Part shown: positions 2,589-13,433 of the stretch, piece by piece
How positions within the stretch are numbered: position 1 is the first letter of the stretch
Layout of the letters: each line of letters begins with the position of its first letter
Source: Candidatus Altiarchaeota archaeon
GTDB taxonomy: Archaea > Altiarchaeota > Altiarchaeia > IMC4 > SCGC-AAA252-I15
NCBI GenBank assembly: GCA_043813075.1
Contig: JBDRLL010000030.1
Location: 1-13,433, forward strand
Direction of reading: 5' to 3'
DNA length: 13,433 bases
Position numbers and translations under genes: made by a program
The notes under the pieces: model-generated
Database searches by the model: none
Told to the model about the DNA's origin: nothing
What the model saw: the letters and a program-made list of their open reading frames with translations, nothing else

Positions 2589-3110
2589 ATGAAGTGGAGT
2601 GCATGCGCCATAGGAACCATCATTTTTCTCCTCACAACAACAGTAAACGCCGATGACCTGCTAAACATCTCGGTTAACATAAACGGGGATGACGCGTCAA
2701 CAAAGATACCAAAAGCGTATACTGGGGAAAGTGCTAGCGTGAGAATAGTCCTCGAAACCCCTGAAGAAGGGGTGAGGATAAACGACATTTCATTCGCATC
2801 ATACCCCGGGGCGGTGGGCATAGTACTGAACAATGCTGTAAGGAAGAGCATTGAATTCCCATACACGACCGGGCCAGACACCATAAAAAACGATGTGTAC
2901 CTGCCATGGTACCTGCCAGAGGGATTATATGAGATAACCATAAACACCCACTACACACACGACTATTCCAGGGGCAGGAACACATACCGCATGCGGATCA
3001 TGGTCATGTCCGGCGGATGGACTTCAAGGATACTCGGATGGATAGCCTGGTTTCTCCCAGACCTAGTGACAAAAAAGATTATCGAGGTACTACTCCTTAT
3101 TTTTGGTTGA
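2589..3110 (+). CDS. Hypothetical exported protein with signal peptide and hydrophobic C-terminus
   Basis: N-terminus MKWSACAIGTIIFLLTTTVNA-D looks like a signal peptide. The core appears beta-rich (LPEGLYEITIN) and the C-terminus is hydrophobic. Overlaps cutA convergently by 21 bp. Confidence 0.7.
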   Translation: MKWSACAIGTIIFLLTTTVNADDLLNISVNINGDDASTKIPKAYTGESASVRIVLETPEEGVRINDISFASYPGAVGIVLNNAVRKSIEFPYTTGPDTIKNDVYLPWYLPEGLYEITINTHYTHDYSRGRNTYRMRIMVMSGGWTSRILGWIAWFLPDLVTKKIIEVLLLIFG

Positions 3111-3414: not shown

Positions 3415-4257
3415 CTAACCAGTGAAGTCCATGCTGAAATCCAACGCCACCGCAGAGTGTGTGAGACGGCCTATTGAAATCCAGTCCACATCAAGACGAC
3501 CGTAATTCCGTATATTACGCAGTCTTATGCCGCCAGAGACCTCTATGAGAACCTTCCTCCTAAGCCCCCTCACCTCCAAGTCGGAGAGTATTTTACGTAT
3601 CTCCCTAGGACGCATGTTGTCCAGCATTATAACATCGGCACCGGACTCAGCAGCCTTCAACGCATCCGCACGATTAGACACCTCAACCTCCACCTTAGCC
3701 TTCAACCTGGCGTTAGAGGCAGCAGACAATGCCCTTTCAACATCATTATCAAACAGTATCAGGTGGTTGTCTTTGATCAGCACCATGTCGTAGAGGCCCA
3801 TCCTATGGGTGAGCCCTCCACCGACAACAACCGCCTTCTTCTCCAAACAGCGTATGAGGGGGGTTGTCTTCCGGGTCGCAGTCACCCGCGCCCTGGATTT
3901 CACAGAATTTAGGGCGTCAACGTATTTCCTCGTAAGTGTTGTGATCCCACTCATCCGGGAGAGTATGTTCAACGCAGTCCGTTCTATGAGGAGTATGTCA
4001 TGAGCATTCCCGTATAAACGGAAGACCACCATATCCTTTGAGACACGGTCGCCGTCAGACACCATTGGATTCGATTTTACATTGTATTGTTTGAAGAGCG
4101 CCTGGAGTTCATCAATACCTGAGACGTAGCCAGAATCCTTAGAACGTATTACTGCCCGAACCTTCGGGTTCGGGGTGAAAGAGGAGGTTAAGTCCCCAAG
4201 ACCCACATCCTCGCCGATCATGTCTTTCAGAAGCGTCCCTATGCTTCTGTCATTCAT
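3415..4257 (-). CDS. nadC: Nicotinate-nucleotide diphosphorylase (quinolinate phosphoribosyltransferase)
   Basis: ED-x-G-x-GDLTS, ERTALN, TRKTTP, HRMGLYD-x-x-LIKDNH, EVEV, IMLDNM and EVSGGI motifs. Confidence 0.96.
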   Translation of the reverse strand: MNDRSIGTLLKDMIGEDVGLGDLTSSFTPNPKVRAVIRSKDSGYVSGIDELQALFKQYNVKSNPMVSDGDRVSKDMVVFRLYGNAHDILLIERTALNILSRMSGITTLTRKYVDALNSVKSRARVTATRKTTPLIRCLEKKAVVVGGGLTHRMGLYDMVLIKDNHLILFDNDVERALSAASNARLKAKVEVEVSNRADALKAAESGADVIMLDNMRPREIRKILSDLEVRGLRRKVLIEVSGGIRLRNIRNYGRLDVDWISIGRLTHSAVALDFSMDFTG

Positions 4258-6759: not shown

Positions 6760-7908
6760 ATGGATGTGTACTTGGATCACGCGGCAACCACGCCAGTAGA
6801 TGGTTCTGTTGTAAAAGCAATGCTGCCGTATATGACGGAGAGATACGGGAATGCTTCAAGCCTCCATAAAAAGGGGAGGGAAGCTAGGGATGCGTTAGAG
6901 GCGGCGAGGAAGACTATTGCAGGCAGGATAAACGCCTCCCCTGAGGAGGTAATATTCACGTCAGGCGGGAGCGAGTCAGACAACCTGGCGCTAAAGGGGG
7001 TGGCTTACAAGAGAAAGGAGGGGGGAGGGCATTTGATAACCAGCAGGATAGAACATCCAGCAGTTTTAGAAACATGCCGGCGTCTGGAGGTAAAAGGGTT
7101 TAATGTAACCTACCTTGACGTCGACGGGGAGGGTTTTATCAGCCTGGCCGATCTGGAAGACAGCATAACAGAAAAGACGGTTATGGTGTCAGTAATGCAT
7201 GCAAACAATGAGGTGGGGACCATAAACGACATAAAGGCTATAGGTGGGTTGTGCCATGAGCGTGGGGTGCTTTTCCACACCGACGCAGTGCAAAGCTTCA
7301 CTAAGACAGAGATAGATGTGAAGAAGCAGAATATAGACCTCGCTTCCTTCTCATCCCATAAGATACATGGACCCAAAGGAGTGGGAGCCCTATACGTCAG
7401 GGAGGATCTAAAGAACAGGATTGAACGCCAGATTGATGGAGGGGGCCATGAATACCGGCTTAGGGCGGGAACAGAGAATGTTGCAGGAGCAGTGGGTTTC
7501 TCGCATGCAACCAACCTGATAACGAAAGAGGATGTGAGGGGAATGAGCGGACTCAGAGACAAGATAATACGAGAGTTAACAAAGCTCCCGGAATCGCATT
7601 TAAACGGGCCTGAGGGGGATAAACGGTTGTGCAACAACGCGAACATAAGCTTCTACAACATTGAGGGGGAGTCCCTGCTATTGATGCTTGACTCTCTGGG
7701 AGTGCAGGTATCAACAGGTTCGGCGTGCTCAAGCGCAAGCCTTGAGCCAAGCCATGTGTTGACTGCGATGGGCAGACGACCAGAGCAGTCTCATGGTTCC
7801 ATACGCATAAGCTTGGGTAGGGAAAACACTGAGGAAGAAGTAGATTACGCCATAGACGCGATAGGGGGGGTGGTTCTTAAACTAAGGGCGCTAAGCCCAC
7901 TAGTCTAA
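6760..7908 (+). CDS. iscS: Group I cysteine desulfurase (IscS/NifS)
   Basis: YLDHAATTP, FTSGGSESDN, HTDAVQ, PLP-lysine motif SSHKIHGPKG and catalytic STGSACSS. Confidence 0.95.
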   Translation: MDVYLDHAATTPVDGSVVKAMLPYMTERYGNASSLHKKGREARDALEAARKTIAGRINASPEEVIFTSGGSESDNLALKGVAYKRKEGGGHLITSRIEHPAVLETCRRLEVKGFNVTYLDVDGEGFISLADLEDSITEKTVMVSVMHANNEVGTINDIKAIGGLCHERGVLFHTDAVQSFTKTEIDVKKQNIDLASFSSHKIHGPKGVGALYVREDLKNRIERQIDGGGHEYRLRAGTENVAGAVGFSHATNLITKEDVRGMSGLRDKIIRELTKLPESHLNGPEGDKRLCNNANISFYNIEGESLLLMLDSLGVQVSTGSACSSASLEPSHVLTAMGRRPEQSHGSIRISLGRENTEEEVDYAIDAIGGVVLKLRALSPLV

Positions 7909-7914
7909 TCCACA

Positions 7915-8724
7915 TCACCAACCCCTTTTCTCACTCTTTTCCTTAGCAACACTCAGCTGTATGTCAGAGGGATGTGTTGAATCCCATAGCTGGGATATGC
8001 TTTCAGCAAGGCCGAACAATTCAGGGTCATTGTTTATGGAATATTTCTTACCAAGACTCTTGTGTGCTCTTATCTTCCCCATGAGTTCGATTACGTTGAC
8101 TCGCGTGTCAACGCATCCGTCACGCTCTAGGATCACGGCCTGGACGGGGAGCCCCGCATCCGCCATTAGACTGGAACCTTCGTACACTTCAAGGACGCAC
8201 CCCACACCTAAAACCGCCTTAGGCTTGTACTTCTTGACCATCCTTTTCACGAGCATGGATCCGGGTGCTATGAAAAAACGGTATCCTAGCTGTTCAGAGT
8301 ACTCCTTTATCTTGAATATGCCGCAACGACCGCATGAAATGCATTTTATACCCTCAGAACCAAGGGGGGCGGGGCATTTGGGGTTTCTCATGCATTGGGG
8401 CAGGAATATCACCCGCTCAGGATAGTTGGTGGACGCGTAAGCCTTAGCGTATAGTATGTTCCTCAACTCCACGACCATCGTGTCTATGAATATTCCATCG
8501 ATACCGAACAGCCATGACATCTGCTTTACAGGAGCCTCCAGGAATCCGAGTATGAACAAGGTTATGTTAGGGAGCATAATCCGGTTGTTCCTACGGTAGA
8601 CTAATGCGAGAAAAACCCCCAACAGGGATAAGGACACCACACTCACGAAGAGCGTTCCTGCCAGGATAATGGTCGCTAACCCTATCTTATGTAGGGTGGT
8701 AAGCTCAAAAACAGGCAAATCCAT
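7915..8724 (-). CDS. DUF116-family Cys-rich membrane-anchored protein
   Basis: N-terminal TM segments, then FLPQCMR-x-x-x-CPA, C-x-x-CG-x-C, IAPGS, VLGVGC and GCVDT, the DUF116 pattern. Confidence 0.85.
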   Translation of the reverse strand: MDLPVFELTTLHKIGLATIILAGTLFVSVVSLSLLGVFLALVYRRNNRIMLPNITLFILGFLEAPVKQMSWLFGIDGIFIDTMVVELRNILYAKAYASTNYPERVIFLPQCMRNPKCPAPLGSEGIKCISCGRCGIFKIKEYSEQLGYRFFIAPGSMLVKRMVKKYKPKAVLGVGCVLEVYEGSSLMADAGLPVQAVILERDGCVDTRVNVIELMGKIRAHKSLGKKYSINNDPELFGLAESISQLWDSTHPSDIQLSVAKEKSEKRGW

Positions 8725-8758: not shown

Positions 8759-9340
8759 TCAGTAGTCTATCCCACGCCTAACCCTAATACCCCTGTTAAA
8801 CGGGTGTTTTACGTCCTTTAGCTCAGTAACATAGTCAGCGGCTTCGATAATCCTCTTGGGGGCGTTACGCCCAGTCAACACGAGTTCCGTGTGGCTTTTC
8901 TTGGATTTAATCAGCTTAAGCACACGGTCAACTGACGTTAGCTTGCGGTGCAGCGCATTATTCACTTCATCTATTATCACCAGGTCGTATTTCCCTGACT
9001 TAAGTATCTTCTCAGCGTGGTTCAAAGCCTCCTCAACGTATTCCCTCTCTTCATTTCGCGATATGAAGCAGTCCCTACAGTTCCCACAATCTATGTCCCC
9101 CTTCTTCATCTCATCAGAGTAAGGGCACTTCTTCCCGTATTGTTTTATGGTCATCCTGGGGAGGATTTCAATGGAGGATATCACCTCACCCATATGACTA
9201 CCACCCTTCAGTAACTGTATCATGTACACGGAGAATCCATGCCCCATAGACCTTAAAGCAAGCCCTAATGAGATGCTCGTCTTCCCCTTACCCGCTCCAG
9301 TGTAAACATGGATAAGACCCTTCCTCTTATTAGCTGGCAT
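8759..9340 (-). CDS. cobA: ATP:cob(I)alamin adenosyltransferase, CobA/BtuR/CobO type, with a 4-Cys insertion
   Basis: GLIHVYTGAGKGKT short P-loop, IQLLKG, YDLVIIDE, ELVLTGR-x-AP, ADYVTE, KHPF and GIDY. Start at ATG 9340; the 9439 start would overlap nrdJ. Confidence 0.93.
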   Translation of the reverse strand: MPANKRKGLIHVYTGAGKGKTSISLGLALRSMGHGFSVYMIQLLKGGSHMGEVISSIEILPRMTIKQYGKKCPYSDEMKKGDIDCGNCRDCFISRNEEREYVEEALNHAEKILKSGKYDLVIIDEVNNALHRKLTSVDRVLKLIKSKKSHTELVLTGRNAPKRIIEAADYVTELKDVKHPFNRGIRVRRGIDY

Positions 9341-9344
9341 ATTA

Positions 9345-11492
9345 TCACGCGATGCTACACGCAGAGTACCCACATGAATGGCATTTACTGCATCCTTCCT
9401 CAAACACGAGTTTACTGCCGCACTCAGGGCAAGAATCATCCTTGCCTGCCTTCCTCTCAGACTTTGGCTTGTTAACAGCCTCTATATTCAATACCTGCCC
9501 GCTCCTACTCCCATCCCTGTATATGGTCACCCCCTTACACCCCAGTTTGTAGGCTAGGAGGTATACTTTCTCAACATCATCTGTTGTAGCGTAGTTCGGG
9601 AAGTTGACTGTCTTTGAGACTGCGTTATCGGTGTGCTTCTGGAATGCCGCCTGCATTCGCACATGCCATTCAGGCGTTACTTCATGGGCGGTGATGAACA
9701 CACCCTTAACGTCCTCAGGTATCTCGTCTATACCTTGTATGGTGCCCCTCCGAGCTATCTTCCGCATCAATTCCTCGCTGTAGAACCCTTTTTCACGCGC
9801 CATCCTCTCGAATAGGGGGTTCACCTCAACCATCTCCGTCCCATCAAGGATATTTCGTATGAAAGATACTGCAAACAACGGTTCTATCCCCCCAGAGCAG
9901 TTGGCTATGATGCTTATAGTCCCCGTGGGGGCTATGGTGGTTGTGGTCGCATTCCTCAGCTTCGCATACCCTTGCCCTGGCCATATGCTCTTCTTGAAGT
10001 TTGGGAACACCCCCCTCTTTTCCGCCAGCTCCGCAGACGCCTTCTTAGACTCCTCGTTAATGAAGGACATTACCTTTTCAGCCACACTAATGGCATCTTC
10101 ACTGTTGTACGGCACCCCTAATTGTATCAGCATGTCCGCAAACCCCATTATACCAAGACCTATCTTCCGGTTGCTCCTAACCATCTTAGCTATCTCATCA
10201 AGGGGGAAGTTACTCATGTCTATCACATTATCAAGGAAGTGAACCGCAACATGCACGATCCGCTTTAGCCTGCGCCAATTAACCTCACCCTCATCAACCA
10301 TCTTAGACAGGTTTATGGACCCTAGGTTGCACGCCTCGTAGGGCAGTAGCGGCTGTTCGCCGCACGGGTTCGTGGATTCTATCTCCCCTATCGCAGGAGT
10401 GGGGTTGTCCCTGTTGAGCCTGTCGAGGAATATTATCCCAGGTTCCCCGTTCTTCCAGGCCATGGTGATGATCAAGTCGAATACATGCTTCGAGTTTATG
10501 CGGTTCATCACGCTCTTGTCATGTGGGTTAATGAGGTCATAGTCCTCTCCCTTCTCCACAGCATCCATGAAACTTTCAGTGACCCCCACAGATATGTTGA
10601 AGTTGTTCAAAACATTCTCCTGCTCTTTAGCGGTTATGAAATCTATTATGTCCGGATGGTCTACGCGGAGTATGGCCATGTTAGCCCCCCTCCTCGTGCC
10701 CCCCTGCTTGATGACCTCCGTCGCAGCGTTGAATACGTTCATGAATGATAATGGACCTGATGCTACGCCACTGGTTGATCTCACATGATTGCCTTTGGGC
10801 CTCAGCCTGCTGAATGAGAATCCAGTGCCGCCGCCACTCTTGTGTATTAGTGCCGTGTTCTTTATGGCCTCGAATATGCTTTCCATGCTGTCCTCAACGG
10901 GGAGTACAAAGCATGCTGAGAGCTGTTGGAGTTCCCTGCCCGCGTTCATGAGGGTTGGTGAGTTTGGCATGAAATACTTGTTTGACATGATATCATAGAA
11001 ATCCCTCTCTGTTTTTTTGACATCCGCTTTTTTGTTGTATAACGCGTCCGCCTCAGCTATGTTCCTAGCCACCCTCTGGAAGAGTTGCTTTGGGGTTTCA
11101 GTGATTGCCCCGTCTGGTGACTTCATCAAGTACCTCTTTTCAAGGACTTTAACCGCGTTTAGGGATAGTTTTATGTCGTCGTCGACTCCCATAAGGGATT
11201 TTGTCTCACGAAGTTTCTTGCGTTCCTGCCTGTATATTATGTATGCTTTCGCCACGTCTGGCTTGCTGTCTTTTATCAGAACGTCTTCAACTATGTCCTG
11301 AACGTCCTCCACGCTAGGGGTTTTGTTCTTGAATCTGGAATTCAGTTTCCTTACGACATTTCCTGCCAGCCGGTCAGCTTCCTTACCGTCCTTCTCGTTG
11401 ACTGCCGTTATGGCCTTGTGTATTGCGTCAACAATCTTCTGCTTGTTGAATTTGACTGTTCTCCCGTCTCTCTTCCGTATCTTAGAAACCAT
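9345..11492 (-). CDS. nrdJ: Class II (adenosylcobalamin-dependent) ribonucleotide reductase with N-terminal ATP-cone and C-terminal Cys cluster
   Basis: ATP-cone (IRKRDGR...VEDVQDIVE...AKAYIIYR), [16 protein letters not shown], thiyl motif [25 protein letters not shown] and [11 protein letters not shown]; no intein evident. Start ATG 11492 with GGGGTGG upstream. Confidence 0.95.
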
Positions 11493-11556
11493 TATCCACC
11501 CCAACCCAATAGGTGCTTTACAGATTAGATTGGGGGAATATATATCTTCAGCATCC

Positions 11557-11796
11557 TCACCCCTGGTCGACTGACTCAACCCGCTCAACACCTGGGACTT
11601 CCTTCTTCAGGGTCTGCTCTATCCCGTGTTGGAGGGTCATCTGCGACATCGGGCATCCGTGGCATGCTCCCTTTAGCCTTACCTTTACCACACCCCCTTC
11701 AACGTCCACCAGCTCCACATCTCCCCCATCCATCTGGAGTAGGGGGCGTATCTTCTCCAGGCTCTTGGATACCTGTCCTTTAAGATCGTCTGTCAT
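11557..11796 (-). CDS. NifU C-terminal (Nfu)-domain Fe-S carrier protein
   Basis: IRP[12 protein letters not shown] and L[19 protein letters not shown]; single Nfu domain with CxxC. Confidence 0.93.
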
Positions 11797-13089: not shown

Positions 13090-13433
13090 TCATGTTCCTA
13101 TCTCTAACCGCCCGCATATCCTCCTGAGGGTCTGTACTGCTGAAAGGCATGCCATGTACGATGTTCCCGGGTTCTCCGGGGAGGGTACGTTGTCTGCCCT
13201 GGATTCGAATGCCCCGAATGCCCCGCTGGCCTTTATCTCGTGAGTGTTGCTGCTCGCAGTCGGGTCGCACACTATGACGACCCTAGTCTTGTCAGGGCCT
13301 ACCCCCGCAAGGCTTAGTATTGCAGACACGTTGACGTTCTTTGGGAATAGCTTCACCGCTTCCCTGGCCGGGCCGTCGTAGAGTGTAGTGGCCTTTGTTA
13401 TCTTATCCACGTCTATGCCCCTATCTTCAAGGT
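13090..13433 (-). CDS. nadX: L-aspartate dehydrogenase, C-terminal part (truncated by window edge)
   Basis: Frame is open to the window end (..LEDRGIDVDKIT..). G-x-AREAVKLFPKNVNVSA, NTHEI and PSPENPGTS match the DUF108 domain. Confidence 0.9.
   Translation of the reverse strand, partial: LEDRGIDVDKITKATTLYDGPAREAVKLFPKNVNVSAILSLAGVGPDKTRVVIVCDPTASSNTHEIKASGAFGAFESRADNVPSPENPGTSYMACLSAVQTLRRICGRLEIGT

What the first reader, a model, noticed from the sequence alone, without database searches (positions are those of the whole stretch)
9068..9127. CobA/BtuR adenosyltransferase with an inserted C-x12-C-x2-C-x2-C motif, a candidate Fe-S-containing adenosyltransferase
Seen: QYGKKC72PYSDEMKKGDIDC85GNC88RDC91FISR sits where canonical CobA has a short G-x-G-F-T-W corrin-contacting loop. 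Known: Salmonella-type CobA has no Fe-S cluster and needs an external reductant (flavodoxin/ferredoxin) to make Co(I); CxxCxxC plus a distal Cys is a common [4Fe-4S] ligand set. Inference: this variant may carry its own cluster near the corrin site to deliver the Co(II)->Co(I) electron, or it may bind structural Zn. Similar insertions may exist in other anaerobes; I cannot check whether any has been characterised.
Basis: partly seen in the sequence, partly recalled or inferred. Interest (0 to 1): 0.75.

Follow-up and report, generated by a model that had tools for sequence, protein, structure and literature searches.

The report
B12-activating enzyme with four-cysteine metal loop
This archaeal gene encodes the enzyme that turns vitamin B12 into its active coenzyme for the neighbouring DNA-precursor enzyme, and it belongs to an undescribed branch of that family carrying a conserved four-cysteine metal-binding loop beside the B12 pocket; which metal it holds is still unknown.

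Summary
The gene (8759-9340, minus strand, 193 aa) is a CobA/BtuR-type ATP:corrinoid adenosyltransferase (PF02572, E 6e-54) with Cys72, Cys85, Cys88 and Cys91 at 9068-9127.

The motif is not chance. 117 of 119 nearest homologues keep C...CxxCxxC, and across 336 family rows the pattern is nearly all-or-none (145 with four Cys, 158 with none).

The loop is a 19-residue insertion placed immediately before a conserved Phe (F92). F92 is the likely counterpart of Salmonella CobA Phe91, so that Phe is kept, not replaced.

The gene starts 4 nt after an adenosylcobalamin-dependent class II ribonucleotide reductase. This pairing held in all 15 related genomes that have the Cys4 form and in 6 DPANN loci. 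Bacterial Cys4 forms sit in cob/cbi operons, so the enzyme function is secure.

The metal cannot be settled here. The triple reads C-G-x-C-R-x-C, as in the structural-zinc lobe of alcohol/threonine dehydrogenases. Five 3-Cys variants all carry a nearby His, and one nested lineage lost all four Cys but kept the loop. These points favour a structural mononuclear site (about 0.5) over a [4Fe-4S] electron relay (about 0.35).

I rate it a new variant of a known kind. Six searches of the open-access paper library found no description of it.

The parts
8759..9340 (-). CobA/BtuR-type ATP:corrinoid adenosyltransferase CDS, 193 aa plus stop (P0002). The longer 226-aa ORF from 9439 is an upstream extension that overlaps the RNR gene.
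   Evidence: PF02572 E 6.1e-54. Homologues are 189-213 aa and start at the equivalent Met. AF2 model pLDDT 95. Best structural match 4hut_A, Z 23.2, rmsd 2.3 A over 170 residues.
9068..9127 (-). Cys4 segment C72-x12-C85-x2-C88-x2-C91, the putative metal-binding loop. It contains a 19-residue insertion relative to canonical short CobA.
   Evidence: About 23 model residues are left unaligned to Salmonella CobA (170 of 193 aligned). Model secondary structure: strand 63-68, helix 75-80, coil 81-94, helix 95-115.
9125..9127 (-). Cys72 codon (TGC), followed by Pro73-Tyr74.
   Evidence: Read. The upstream Cys is followed by Pro in 86 of 141 Cys4 rows (PY 68, PW 7, PH 5, PF 4, PR 2).
9077..9088 (-). 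Cys85-Gly-Asn-Cys88 codons, the first two Cys of the triple.
   Evidence: Consensus C-G(114/141)-x-C-R/K(124/141)-x-C.
9068..9070 (-). Cys91 codon (TGC).
   Evidence: Read; conservation.
9065..9067 (-). Phe92, the conserved aromatic residue right after the loop. It is the likely counterpart of Salmonella/E. coli Phe91, which packs on the lower face of the corrin.
   Evidence: F in 136 of 141 Cys4 rows. Canonical rows have F or W at the matching offset in 74 of 125 matched rows. E. coli BtuR has F91/W93 in GFTW.
9278..9298 (-). P-loop G15-A-G-K-G-K-T21.
   Evidence: Read; these columns are invariant or nearly invariant in A1/A2.
9341..9344 (-). 4-nt spacer between the RNR stop codon and the CobA start codon, suggesting a translationally coupled pair.
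   Evidence: Read with the ORF ends.
9345..11591 (-). Class II (adenosylcobalamin-dependent) ribonucleotide reductase, 748 aa, with an ATP-cone and a Cys-rich C-terminal tail. It is the likely client of the adenosyltransferase.
   Evidence: NF006417 at 1071 bits (cut-off 961) and TIGR02504 at 765 bits (cut-off 400); Pfam domains.
7915..8724 (-). DUF116 protein, 269 aa, 35 nt downstream. The model has long N-terminal helices (4-46, 53-72), read as membrane-spanning but not tested with a TM predictor, and there are 7 invariant Cys, including C-x2-C-x2-C. It is conserved downstream of CobA in the same family of genomes. Its link to CobA is unproven.
   Evidence: PF01976 E 9e-43. Present downstream in 10 relatives' loci. 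Invariant Cys from alignment A4.

Best explanation
The gene encodes a working CobA-type ATP:corrinoid adenosyltransferase. It converts salvaged cobalamin into adenosylcobalamin for the class II ribonucleotide reductase encoded 4 nt upstream, in an anaerobic archaeon of the Altiarchaeota kind that appears unable to make B12.

The enzyme belongs to a minor, undescribed CobA subfamily. In this subfamily a 19-residue excursion, closed at its base by C72 and C91 and carrying C85 and C88, is inserted immediately before the conserved Phe (F92, roughly Salmonella Phe91) that packs under the corrin ring.

I read the four Cys as one tetrahedral metal site. The most likely occupant is a mononuclear Zn(II) (or Fe(II)) that staples the enlarged loop and holds F92 and the helix 75-80 lid in place at the dimer interface. 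That would shape the pocket in which four-coordinate Co(II) forms. The electron for Co(II)->Co(I) would then still come from an external low-potential donor such as ferredoxin.

Shown here: family, fold, conserved catalytic motifs, conservation and all-or-none pattern of the Cys, position of the loop, and gene context. Inferred: metal binding, the identity of the metal, and the structural role.
For: Enzyme identity:
- PF02572 at E 6e-54.
- P-loop, DE, TGR and KH...GIDY columns are invariant or nearly so.
- AF2 model pLDDT 95; 4hut_A Z 23.2, rmsd 2.3 A, 170 residues aligned.

Gene context:
- The RNR scores above the cut-offs for AdoCbl-dependent class II.
- RNR lies directly upstream of CobA in 15 of 15 relatives' loci with a full Cys4 CobA, in 3 of 5 full-length Cys-less CobA loci of a sister family, and in 9 of 80 species-representative loci.
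- The three bacterial Cys4 CobAs lie in CbiB-CbiA/CobQ-like-CobA-CobS, CbiG-CbiJ-CbiC-CobA-CobS and BtuC-BtuD-CobA clusters.
- The own genome (89% complete) has one CobA and no PduO/EutT, CbiB, CobS or FecCD hit. It has 16 B12-binding-domain hits; the one checked is a B12/radical-SAM protein.

Metal site:
- 117 of 119 nearest homologues keep the four Cys.
- The pattern is 145 CCCC against 158 with no Cys in 336 rows.
- The Cys label is strongly clustered on the tree: 17-19 changes against about 110 in shuffles.

Mononuclear or structural site:
- The triple consensus C-G-x-C-R/K-x-C has the same residue pattern as C93-G-H-C-R-N-C99 of E. coli threonine dehydrogenase. That these Cys bind the structural Zn of MDR dehydrogenases is recalled knowledge.
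- All five 3-Cys variants lack C85 and have a His 3-6 residues after the first Cys, giving Cys3His.
- P0102 and L014 have no Cys but keep the loop, and they nest among Cys4 forms (FastTree support 98; IQ-TREE SH-aLRT 93). So the site is dispensable, as a structural staple would be.
- The loop segment matches no Pfam family, Fer4 included, at E <= 10.

Dimer:
- Two copies score ipSAE 0.85 against 0.00 for the best of 3 controls. That mark was reached by 20 of 30 proteins solved as pairs of one chain and by 1 of 23 solved as single chains. The runs agree in at least 92% of contacts, and the partner's pLDDT is at least 88.
- The interface includes loop residues 79 and 81.
- The Salmonella CobA dimer has been solved, so this pass may reflect likeness to it.
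Against: - CxxCxxC plus a distant Cys-Pro is also the classic [4Fe-4S] ligand set. Pro follows the first Cys in 86 of 141 rows.
- Every named holder of the Cys4 form is an anaerobe or a DPANN/Altiarchaeota archaeon. The own genome has an oxygen-sensitive class III RNR. It has no stand-alone PF00258 flavodoxin; the only hit is a domain of a flavodiiron-type protein. All of this would suit an oxygen-labile built-in redox centre.
- In MDR dehydrogenases the fourth Cys lies 7 residues after the triple. Here it lies 12-33 residues before it, so the resemblance is local only.
- Cys3His ligation and spacing variants (C-x3-C-x2-C, C-x2-C-x3-C) also occur in Fe-S proteins.
- No coordinates of the model could be read, so S-S distances, which would separate Zn from a cubane, were not measured.
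- The complex job did not report where the 4Fe-4S ligand was placed.
Confidence: 0.5

Rival explanations
1. The four Cys hold a [4Fe-4S] cluster immediately beside F92, under the corrin ring. The cluster would take an electron from ferredoxin or another low-potential donor and pass it to four-coordinate Co(II), making Co(I) inside the same polypeptide. This would be an adenosyltransferase with its own redox relay.
For: - The motif is C-x12-33-C-x2-C-x2-C, with Pro after the first Cys in 86 of 141 rows.
- The loop directly abuts the conserved Phe of the corrin-face loop.
- All named holders are anaerobes or DPANN/Altiarchaeota.
- The own genome has a class III RNR, no stand-alone PF00258 flavodoxin, and a NifS-like cysteine desulfurase about 0.85 kb away.
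- The enzyme chemistry needs a low-potential electron (established knowledge of CobA; passages of PMC7242693).
Against: - The residues between the Cys (Gly at +1, Arg/Lys at +4) match the dehydrogenase structural-Zn lobe rather than the ferredoxin pattern as I recall it.
- No Pfam family, Fer4 included, matches the loop segment at E <= 10.
- All five 3-Cys variants have a His close to the first Cys.
- A nested lineage lost all four Cys and kept the loop, and a sister family in the same order pairs a Cys-less CobA with the same RNR. So the function does not need the site.
- A 20-residue surface loop gives little shielding for a cubane.
- By recall, the Cys motif of the EutT adenosyltransferase turned out to bind a single Fe(II)/Zn(II) ion, not a cluster.
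Confidence: 0.35
2. The Cys bind no metal. They form disulfides or act as a thiol redox switch that opens or closes the lid over the corrin site.
For: Four Cys close together could pair up. The all-or-none conservation would also fit two disulfides.
Against: - The hosts are anaerobes with a reducing cytoplasm (class III RNR).
- C-x2-C-x2-C spacing with an invariant Gly is typical of metal ligation, not of structural disulfides.
- The Cys3His variants make no sense for disulfides.
Confidence: 0.07
3. The protein is a CobA-like P-loop NTPase that no longer adenosylates corrinoids and serves another role for the RNR.
For: It scores below the NCBIfam equivalog cut-offs: TIGR00708 157 against 167.75, and NF004637 166.9 against 185.
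Against: - All family-invariant motifs are kept.
- The fold matches CobA at Z 23.
- Bacterial members of the same Cys4 group sit inside cobalamin biosynthesis and uptake operons.
- It is the only adenosyltransferase candidate found in a genome that has an AdoCbl-dependent RNR.
- The insertion alone can explain the lower scores.
Confidence: 0.03

Closest known systems
Salmonella enterica CobA / E. coli BtuR (PF02572; PDB 1G5R, 1G64, 4HUT)
   Same: Same family, fold (Z 23.2) and P-loop and C-terminal motifs. A homodimer is predicted. An aromatic Phe follows the strand that ends at G69.
   Different: About 30% identity. This protein has a 19-residue four-Cys insertion before the Phe and no Trp93 counterpart. 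It has a 7-residue N-terminus where E. coli has about 27 residues before the first strand. No metal site is known in the enteric enzyme (recalled), and no solved structure has the insertion.
EutT adenosyltransferase of Salmonella (metal-containing ACAT)
   Same: It is an adenosyltransferase whose activity depends on a Cys-rich metal motif. The title 'oxygen-labile, metal-containing' was seen in the reference list of PMC7242693. That the metal is a single Fe(II)/Zn(II) ion is recalled.
   Different: It is an unrelated fold and family. P0002 matched PF02572, plus ResIII and IstB_IS21 below their cut-offs, and not PF01923. The motif differs (H-x11-C-C-x2-C, recalled).
Structural-zinc lobe of medium-chain dehydrogenases (horse liver ADH, E. 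coli Tdh)
   Same: The triple has an identical residue pattern, C-G-x-C-R-x-C (E. coli Tdh C93-C99). It is a surface loop closed by four Cys.
   Different: The host fold is unrelated. The fourth Cys lies 7 residues after the triple there, but 12-33 residues before it here. The zinc ligation there is recalled, not tested.
Adenylate kinase lid domain (Cys4-Zn in some lineages, metal-free in others)
   Same: It is a P-loop enzyme with an inserted lid whose four Cys are present or absent together across lineages. The comparison is recalled.
   Different: The family, substrate and Cys spacing all differ.
Corrinoid reductases and activators with Fe-S clusters (PduS with PduO; RACo/RamA)
   Same: They are what the Fe-S reading would work like: Fe-S centres feeding the Co(II)->Co(I) electron to a corrinoid. 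PduS appeared only in the search listing (PMC2982820).
   Different: Those are separate proteins or domains with ferredoxin-like or NuoF-like modules. Here any cluster would sit in a 20-residue loop of the transferase itself, and the loop segment matched no Pfam family at all.

Membership tests
CobA/BtuR/CobO ATP:corrinoid adenosyltransferase (PF02572) | Profile match above the curated Pfam cut-off over the whole domain | tested here: met
   183.2 bits against 25.7; profile positions 2-172 of 172.
CobA/BtuR/CobO ATP:corrinoid adenosyltransferase (PF02572) | NCBIfam equivalog/subfamily trusted cut-off (TIGR00708 cobA; NF004637) | tested here: not met
   157 against 167.75, and 166.9 against 185. 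The shortfall is small and fits the 19-residue insertion.
CobA/BtuR/CobO ATP:corrinoid adenosyltransferase (PF02572) | P-loop GxGKGKT and the conserved K45, GE, DE, TGR, AD, KH and G-I-D/E-Y motifs | tested here: met
   These columns are invariant or nearly invariant and are shared with E. coli BtuR.
CobA/BtuR/CobO ATP:corrinoid adenosyltransferase (PF02572) | RecA-like CobA fold | tested here: met
   4hut_A Z 23.2, rmsd 2.3 A, 170 residues; 1g64_B Z 22.9. The next family scores Z 12.5.
CobA/BtuR/CobO ATP:corrinoid adenosyltransferase (PF02572) | Aromatic residues of the corrin lower-face loop (Salmonella Phe91 and Trp93) | tested here: inconclusive
   A Phe counterpart is kept as F92 (136 of 141 rows). 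MAFFT instead aligned C72/Y74 with F91/W93. A Trp93 counterpart is not evident.
CobA/BtuR/CobO ATP:corrinoid adenosyltransferase (PF02572) | Homodimer | tested here: inconclusive
   Prediction only: ipSAE 0.85 against 0.00 for the best of 3 controls. The mark was reached by 20 of 30 proteins solved as pairs of one chain and 1 of 23 solved as single chains. The pass may reflect the solved Salmonella dimer.
CobA/BtuR/CobO ATP:corrinoid adenosyltransferase (PF02572) | Genomic link to cobalamin metabolism or an AdoCbl-dependent enzyme | tested here: met
   A class II RNR lies 4 nt upstream. The pairing is conserved. Bacterial Cys4 members sit in cob/cbi/btu clusters.
CobA/BtuR/CobO ATP:corrinoid adenosyltransferase (PF02572) | Adenosylation of Co(I)rrinoid with ATP | not testable with these tools
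   Needs an enzyme assay or complementation.
Ferredoxin-type [4Fe-4S] site | C-x2-C-x2-C plus a distant Cys (often Cys-Pro) | tested here: met
   The motif is present and conserved. It is not specific to Fe-S sites.
Ferredoxin-type [4Fe-4S] site | Match to a Pfam Fe-S binding profile (Fer4 families) | tested here: not met
   Residues 64-100 matched 0 Pfam families at E <= 10. The whole protein matched PF02572, plus ResIII and IstB_IS21 below their cut-offs, and no Fe-S family.
Ferredoxin-type [4Fe-4S] site | Fe and acid-labile sulfide content, 400-nm absorbance, EPR signal | not testable with these tools
   Needs anaerobic purification.
Structural Cys4 zinc site (MDR-dehydrogenase type) | C-G-x-C-R-x-C triple | tested here: met
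   The consensus has G in 114 of 141 rows at +1 and R/K in 124 of 141 at +4. E. coli Tdh reads CGHCRNC.
Structural Cys4 zinc site (MDR-dehydrogenase type) | Fourth Cys 7 residues after the triple | tested here: not met
   Here the fourth Cys lies 12 residues (91 rows) or 27-33 residues (about 37 rows) before the triple.
Structural Cys4 zinc site (MDR-dehydrogenase type) | Zn content; S-S distances near 3.6-3.9 A | not testable with these tools

The most novel reading that the evidence does not exclude
The loop holds a [4Fe-4S] cluster wedged next to the Phe under the corrin. That would make this the first CobA-type adenosyltransferase with its own redox centre. It would take an electron from ferredoxin, reduce four-coordinate Co(II) to Co(I) in cis and adenosylate it. 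This would explain how small-genome anaerobes without a flavodoxin (Altiarchaeota, DPANN, some Clostridia) keep their class II ribonucleotide reductase supplied with coenzyme B12.
Probability: 0.33. Interest if true: 0.75.

Novelty: new variant of a known kind. Interest (0 to 1): 0.48.

Why it matters
How cob(II)alamin receives the very low-potential electron needed for adenosylation is the least settled step of coenzyme B12 formation, and it has been worked out only for flavodoxin-dependent enteric CobA. This CobA subfamily has a conserved metal-binding loop placed right against the corrin-face Phe, so it offers a direct test.

If the site is an Fe-S cluster, the enzyme is a self-contained reductase-transferase. 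If it is Zn or Fe(II), it is a second case after EutT of a metal shaping the four-coordinate Co(II) pocket, this time in the best-studied ACAT fold.

The subfamily is the adenosyltransferase of many uncultured archaea (Altiarchaeota, Woesearchaeota, Nanoarchaeota) that pair it with their B12-dependent ribonucleotide reductase. It therefore also bears on how these B12 scavengers make DNA precursors.

Tried and rejected
- **Loop segment alone (residues 64-100).** It matched no Pfam family at E <= 10. Against PDB sequences it gave only chance-level hits (best E 0.61: multihaem cytochromes, the SMYD2 MYND finger).
- **Solved structures.** Only Salmonella CobA matched, by sequence and by fold. None has the insertion.
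- **Model coordinates.** They are not available in the script box, so Cys S-S distances and the distance to the corrin could not be measured.
- **Complex job.** Two copies plus two 4Fe-4S clusters were folded. The job reports only the protein-protein interface, not where the clusters sit, so it says nothing on Fe-S binding.
- **Other window scans.**
  - Rfam found no family in the window, so no B12 riboswitch.
  - No tRNA was found.
  - Promoter-like and terminator-like sites were no more frequent than in shuffles.
- **Phage records.** There were 6 hits at 28-32% identity. By match length they look like the short canonical type; their sequences were not inspected for Cys.
- **DUF116 neighbour.** The AF2 model has pLDDT 76. 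Foldseek gave nothing at E <= 0.001, and its weak rows included B12-binding domains at E 0.03-0.07 with TM about 0.2. The wide VIA search gave best Z 7.5, a generic Rossmann-like arrangement. No function could be assigned.
- **Single origin of the Cys4 form.** The tree backbone is too poorly resolved to show or exclude it.
- **Literature.**
  - Six full-text searches found no paper describing a Cys motif, Fe-S cluster or Zn site in a CobA-type enzyme.
  - The library holds open-access papers and preprints only.
  - The key primary papers were not held: M. mazei CobA, PMC1482872, and the Phe91/Trp93 study, PMC3567240.
  - Whether the characterised M. mazei CobA carries the motif was not checked.
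  - The DUF116 search mostly returned DUF1162 papers.
Full report
**What is there.** Homologues are 189-213 aa and begin at the Met encoded at 9340, so the gene is 8759-9340 and encodes 193 aa (P0002). The reported span 9068-9127 is exactly C72 to C91.

The protein is a CobA/BtuR/CobO adenosyltransferase. It matches PF02572 at E 6.1e-54 over the full profile. It falls slightly below the NCBIfam equivalog cut-offs (TIGR00708 157 against 167.75). By sequence, its only solved relatives are the Salmonella CobA entries.

An AF2 model built on 139 homologues has mean pLDDT 95, and 86-93 over residues 71-90. It superposes on 4hut_A with Z 23.2 and rmsd 2.3 A over 170 of 193 residues. The next unrelated fold reaches Z 12.5 (Foldseek). 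The roughly 23 unaligned residues correspond to the insertion.

**Is the motif more than chance?**
- Of the 119 best homologues in the 5.8-billion-protein collection, 117 keep CxxCxxC with an upstream Cys. The other two (P0097, P0102) have no Cys at all.
- Among the 150 best 50%-identity cluster representatives, 20 carry C-x(2,3)-C-x2-C, two carry C-x2-C-x3-C, and five are three-Cys forms. The remaining 123 lack the motif. That search found 2765 clusters at E <= 1e-10, so the Cys form is a minor branch of the family, very roughly 1% of clusters. That figure is my extrapolation.
- I aligned 336 rows, after dropping proteins shorter than 150 or longer than 265 aa, the 226-aa ORF, and two loci without a recognisable P-loop. 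The four positions read CCCC in 145 rows, ---- in 158, a single Cys in 25, C-CC in 5, and other three-Cys patterns in 3.
- On a FastTree built without the insert columns, the Cys label needs 17-19 changes against about 110 for shuffled labels (0 of 500 shuffles as low).

The sample is enriched for near relatives of the query, so these proportions do not describe the whole family.

**Where the loop sits.** The model has strand 63-68, helix 75-80, coil 81-94 (which holds CGNCRDC) and helix 95-115. The insertion therefore lies in the strand-to-helix loop that carries G-F91-T-W93 in E. coli BtuR.

MAFFT put C72-P-Y74 opposite F91-T-W93. The family-wide pattern suggests a different register:
- Canonical short CobAs read Q-[FY]-G-x-x-x-[FW]. 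The +4 residue is F in 61 and W in 13 of the 125 rows that could be matched, out of 183 Cys-less rows. An example is QFGREEFVD, from the sister family of the window's own order.
- Nineteen canonical rows read QYGRDCF.
- The Cys4 forms read Q-[FY]-G-K-x-C-(19 residues)-C-F, with F after the last Cys in 136 of 141 rows.

So the loop is a 19-residue excursion closed at its base by C72 and C91 and inserted directly before the conserved Phe. That Phe (F92) is most likely the counterpart of Salmonella Phe91. The role of Phe91 and Trp93 in forming four-coordinate cob(II)alamin I know only from the title of Moore et al. 2012, seen in a reference list, and from recall; the paper itself was not held. 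Any metal bound by the four Cys would therefore sit within a few residues of the corrin's lower face. I could not measure a distance, because model coordinates are not exposed.

**What the enzyme does here.** The gene starts 4 nt after the stop codon of a 748-aa ribonucleotide reductase. That reductase scores above the cut-offs of the AdoCbl-dependent class II models: NF006417 1071 bits against 961, and TIGR02504 765 bits against 400.

The pairing is conserved.
- I searched 41 genomes of the same order, the window's own included, and 24 have a CobA match.
- All 15 loci with a full-length Cys4 CobA have the RNR directly upstream.
- A sister family has a short Cys-less CobA, with the RNR upstream in 3 of 5 full-length loci.
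- Among the 80 best species-representative loci, 9 have the RNR directly upstream. All 9 are archaeal, mostly DPANN. Six have the Cys4 form (L002, L004-L007, L015) and three have no Cys (L008, L014, L018).

The RNR pairing is therefore older and wider than the Cys loop.

The three bacterial Cys4 genes lie in cobalamin gene clusters:
- L003 (Halobacteroidaceae): CbiB, a CbiA/CobQ-like amidase, CobA, CobS, a GHMP-kinase-domain protein, an aminotransferase, a phosphatase.
- L025 (Bacillota): CbiG, CbiJ, CbiC, CobA, CobS.
- L011 (Clostridia): BtuC-like, BtuD-like, CobA.

That fixes the subfamily's function as a housekeeping adenosyltransferase.

The window's genome is 89% complete.
- It has one CobA.
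- It has no PduO/EutT family hit, no CbiB, CobS or FecCD hit, and no second class I/II RNR.
- It has a class III RNR and 16 B12-binding-domain hits. The one I checked is a B12/radical-SAM protein.

It therefore looks like an anaerobic B12 scavenger. Absences in an incomplete genome are not proof.

**Which metal?** The arguments run both ways.

For a [4Fe-4S] cluster:
- CxxCxxC with a distant Cys, followed by Pro in 86 of 141 rows.
- All named holders are anaerobes or DPANN/Altiarchaeota.
- The genome's only PF00258 flavodoxin hit is a domain of a flavodiiron-type protein.
- The reaction needs a low-potential electron.

For a mononuclear structural site:
- The triple's consensus is C-G(114/141)-x-C-R/K(124/141)-x-C. 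This is the same residue pattern as C93-G-H-C-R-N-C99 of E. coli threonine dehydrogenase. By recall this is the structural-zinc lobe of medium-chain dehydrogenases. The fourth Cys there follows the triple by 7 residues, whereas here it precedes it by 12 (91 rows) or 27-33 (about 37 rows).
- The five three-Cys variants all lack C85 and all have a His 3-6 residues after the first Cys. Three of them share one motif, so this represents about three independent cases.
- P0102 and L014 (Aenigmatarchaeota) have no Cys. They keep a loop two residues shorter, with CGKCRAC replaced by PSREI. They nest among Cys4 sequences: FastTree support 98 for a 9-row clade holding 6 Cys4 rows, and IQ-TREE SH-aLRT 93 on 48 chosen rows. 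A second Cys-less group (P0097, L018, L008) also keeps a long loop. The site is thus dispensable, as in lid domains that carry Zn in some lineages only (recalled: adenylate kinase).
- The loop segment matches no Pfam family, Fer4 included, even at E <= 10.
- By recall, the Cys motif of EutT, the other metal-containing adenosyltransferase, binds a single Fe(II)/Zn(II) ion.

I put a mononuclear staple at about 0.5, an Fe-S relay at about 0.35, and no metal at under 0.1.

**Quaternary structure.** Two copies, with two 4Fe-4S ligands riding along, gave ipSAE 0.85 in three runs against 0.00 for the best of three controls. That mark was reached by 20 of 30 proteins solved as pairs of one chain and by 1 of 23 solved as single chains. 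The runs agree in at least 92% of their contacts, and the partner's pLDDT is at least 88. A Salmonella CobA dimer has been solved, so the pass may reflect that likeness. The confident interface includes loop residues 79 and 81, so the helix of the insertion touches the other subunit. The job does not report where the clusters were placed.

**Comparison with what is known.** The protein is a member of the CobA family by profile, motifs, fold and context. It differs from every solved or, to my knowledge, characterised member by the Cys4 insertion and a short N-terminus: 7 residues before the first strand against about 27 in E. coli. If the Fe-S reading holds, it would work like PduS/PduO or the RACo-type activators. 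If the structural reading holds, it would work like EutT.

Six full-text searches found no description of such a CobA. Passages of two reviews list only the three known ACAT types (PMC7242693; PMC5282855). The library lacks most subscription journals. The M. mazei CobA paper was not held, and I did not determine whether that enzyme has the motif. The six phage records I found are about 30% identical and, by match length, of the short type.

**Verdict.** It is placed against the corrin-face Phe, in an enzyme that serves a co-transcribed B12-dependent ribonucleotide reductase. The Fe-S interpretation remains open but is not the favoured one. I class it as a new variant of a known kind, of moderate interest, with a cheap and decisive experiment available.

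Noticed in passing
window 9341-11591 with 8759-9340; loci L093-L107, L109, L110, L113, L002, L004-L008, L014, L015, L018: The class II (AdoCbl) RNR and CobA form a tightly spaced gene pair (4 nt apart here). The pair is conserved across the window's order and in DPANN archaea, with or without the Cys loop.
   Followed up: yes
window 7915-8724 (-): A DUF116 protein lies 35 nt downstream of CobA. The model shows long N-terminal helices (read as membrane-spanning, not tested) and a Rossmann-like domain, with seven invariant Cys (C-x5-C-x10-C-x2-C-x2-C, GVGC, DGC). It is conserved downstream of CobA in 10 relatives' loci but in none of the 80 distant loci. No specific fold match was found (best Z 7.5), and the function is unknown.
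   Followed up: partly
window 9348-9434 (-): The C-terminal tail of the RNR is Cys-rich (CPEC...CSKCHSC...C), like the zinc-finger tails described for class II RNRs (recalled). The false 5' extension of the 226-aa CobA ORF overlaps it.
   Followed up: no
window 6760-7908 (+): A NifS/IscS-like cysteine desulfurase (TIGR03402 488 bits, below its cut-off of 531) converges on the DUF116 gene. It also lies near CobA in several relatives (L093, L094, L100, L101, L103, L105).
   Followed up: partly
G000, e.g. C31:23722-24054, C10:117187-117525 (L083-L090): The genome has 16 B12-binding-domain hits in ORFs of about 460-620 aa; the one checked is a B12/radical-SAM protein. No CbiB, CobS or FecCD-type transporter was found. 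The organism seems to depend heavily on scavenged B12, and its uptake route is unknown.
   Followed up: partly
window 2589-3110 (+): A 173-aa ORF with a hydrophobic N-terminus and C-terminus has no Pfam match.
   Followed up: no
window 3415-4257 (-) and 13090-13431 (-): NAD biosynthesis genes (quinolinate phosphoribosyltransferase; the C-terminal domain of aspartate dehydrogenase at the window edge) lie in the same window. It also holds GatD, a Sua5/YrdC-family protein, deoxyhypusine synthase, a KaiC-like ATPase and an SPFH protein. These are ordinary archaeal housekeeping genes.
   Followed up: no
L008, L014, L018; P0097, P0102: Some DPANN CobAs keep the enlarged loop but have lost every Cys. 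They are natural controls for any biochemical test of the metal site.
   Followed up: partly
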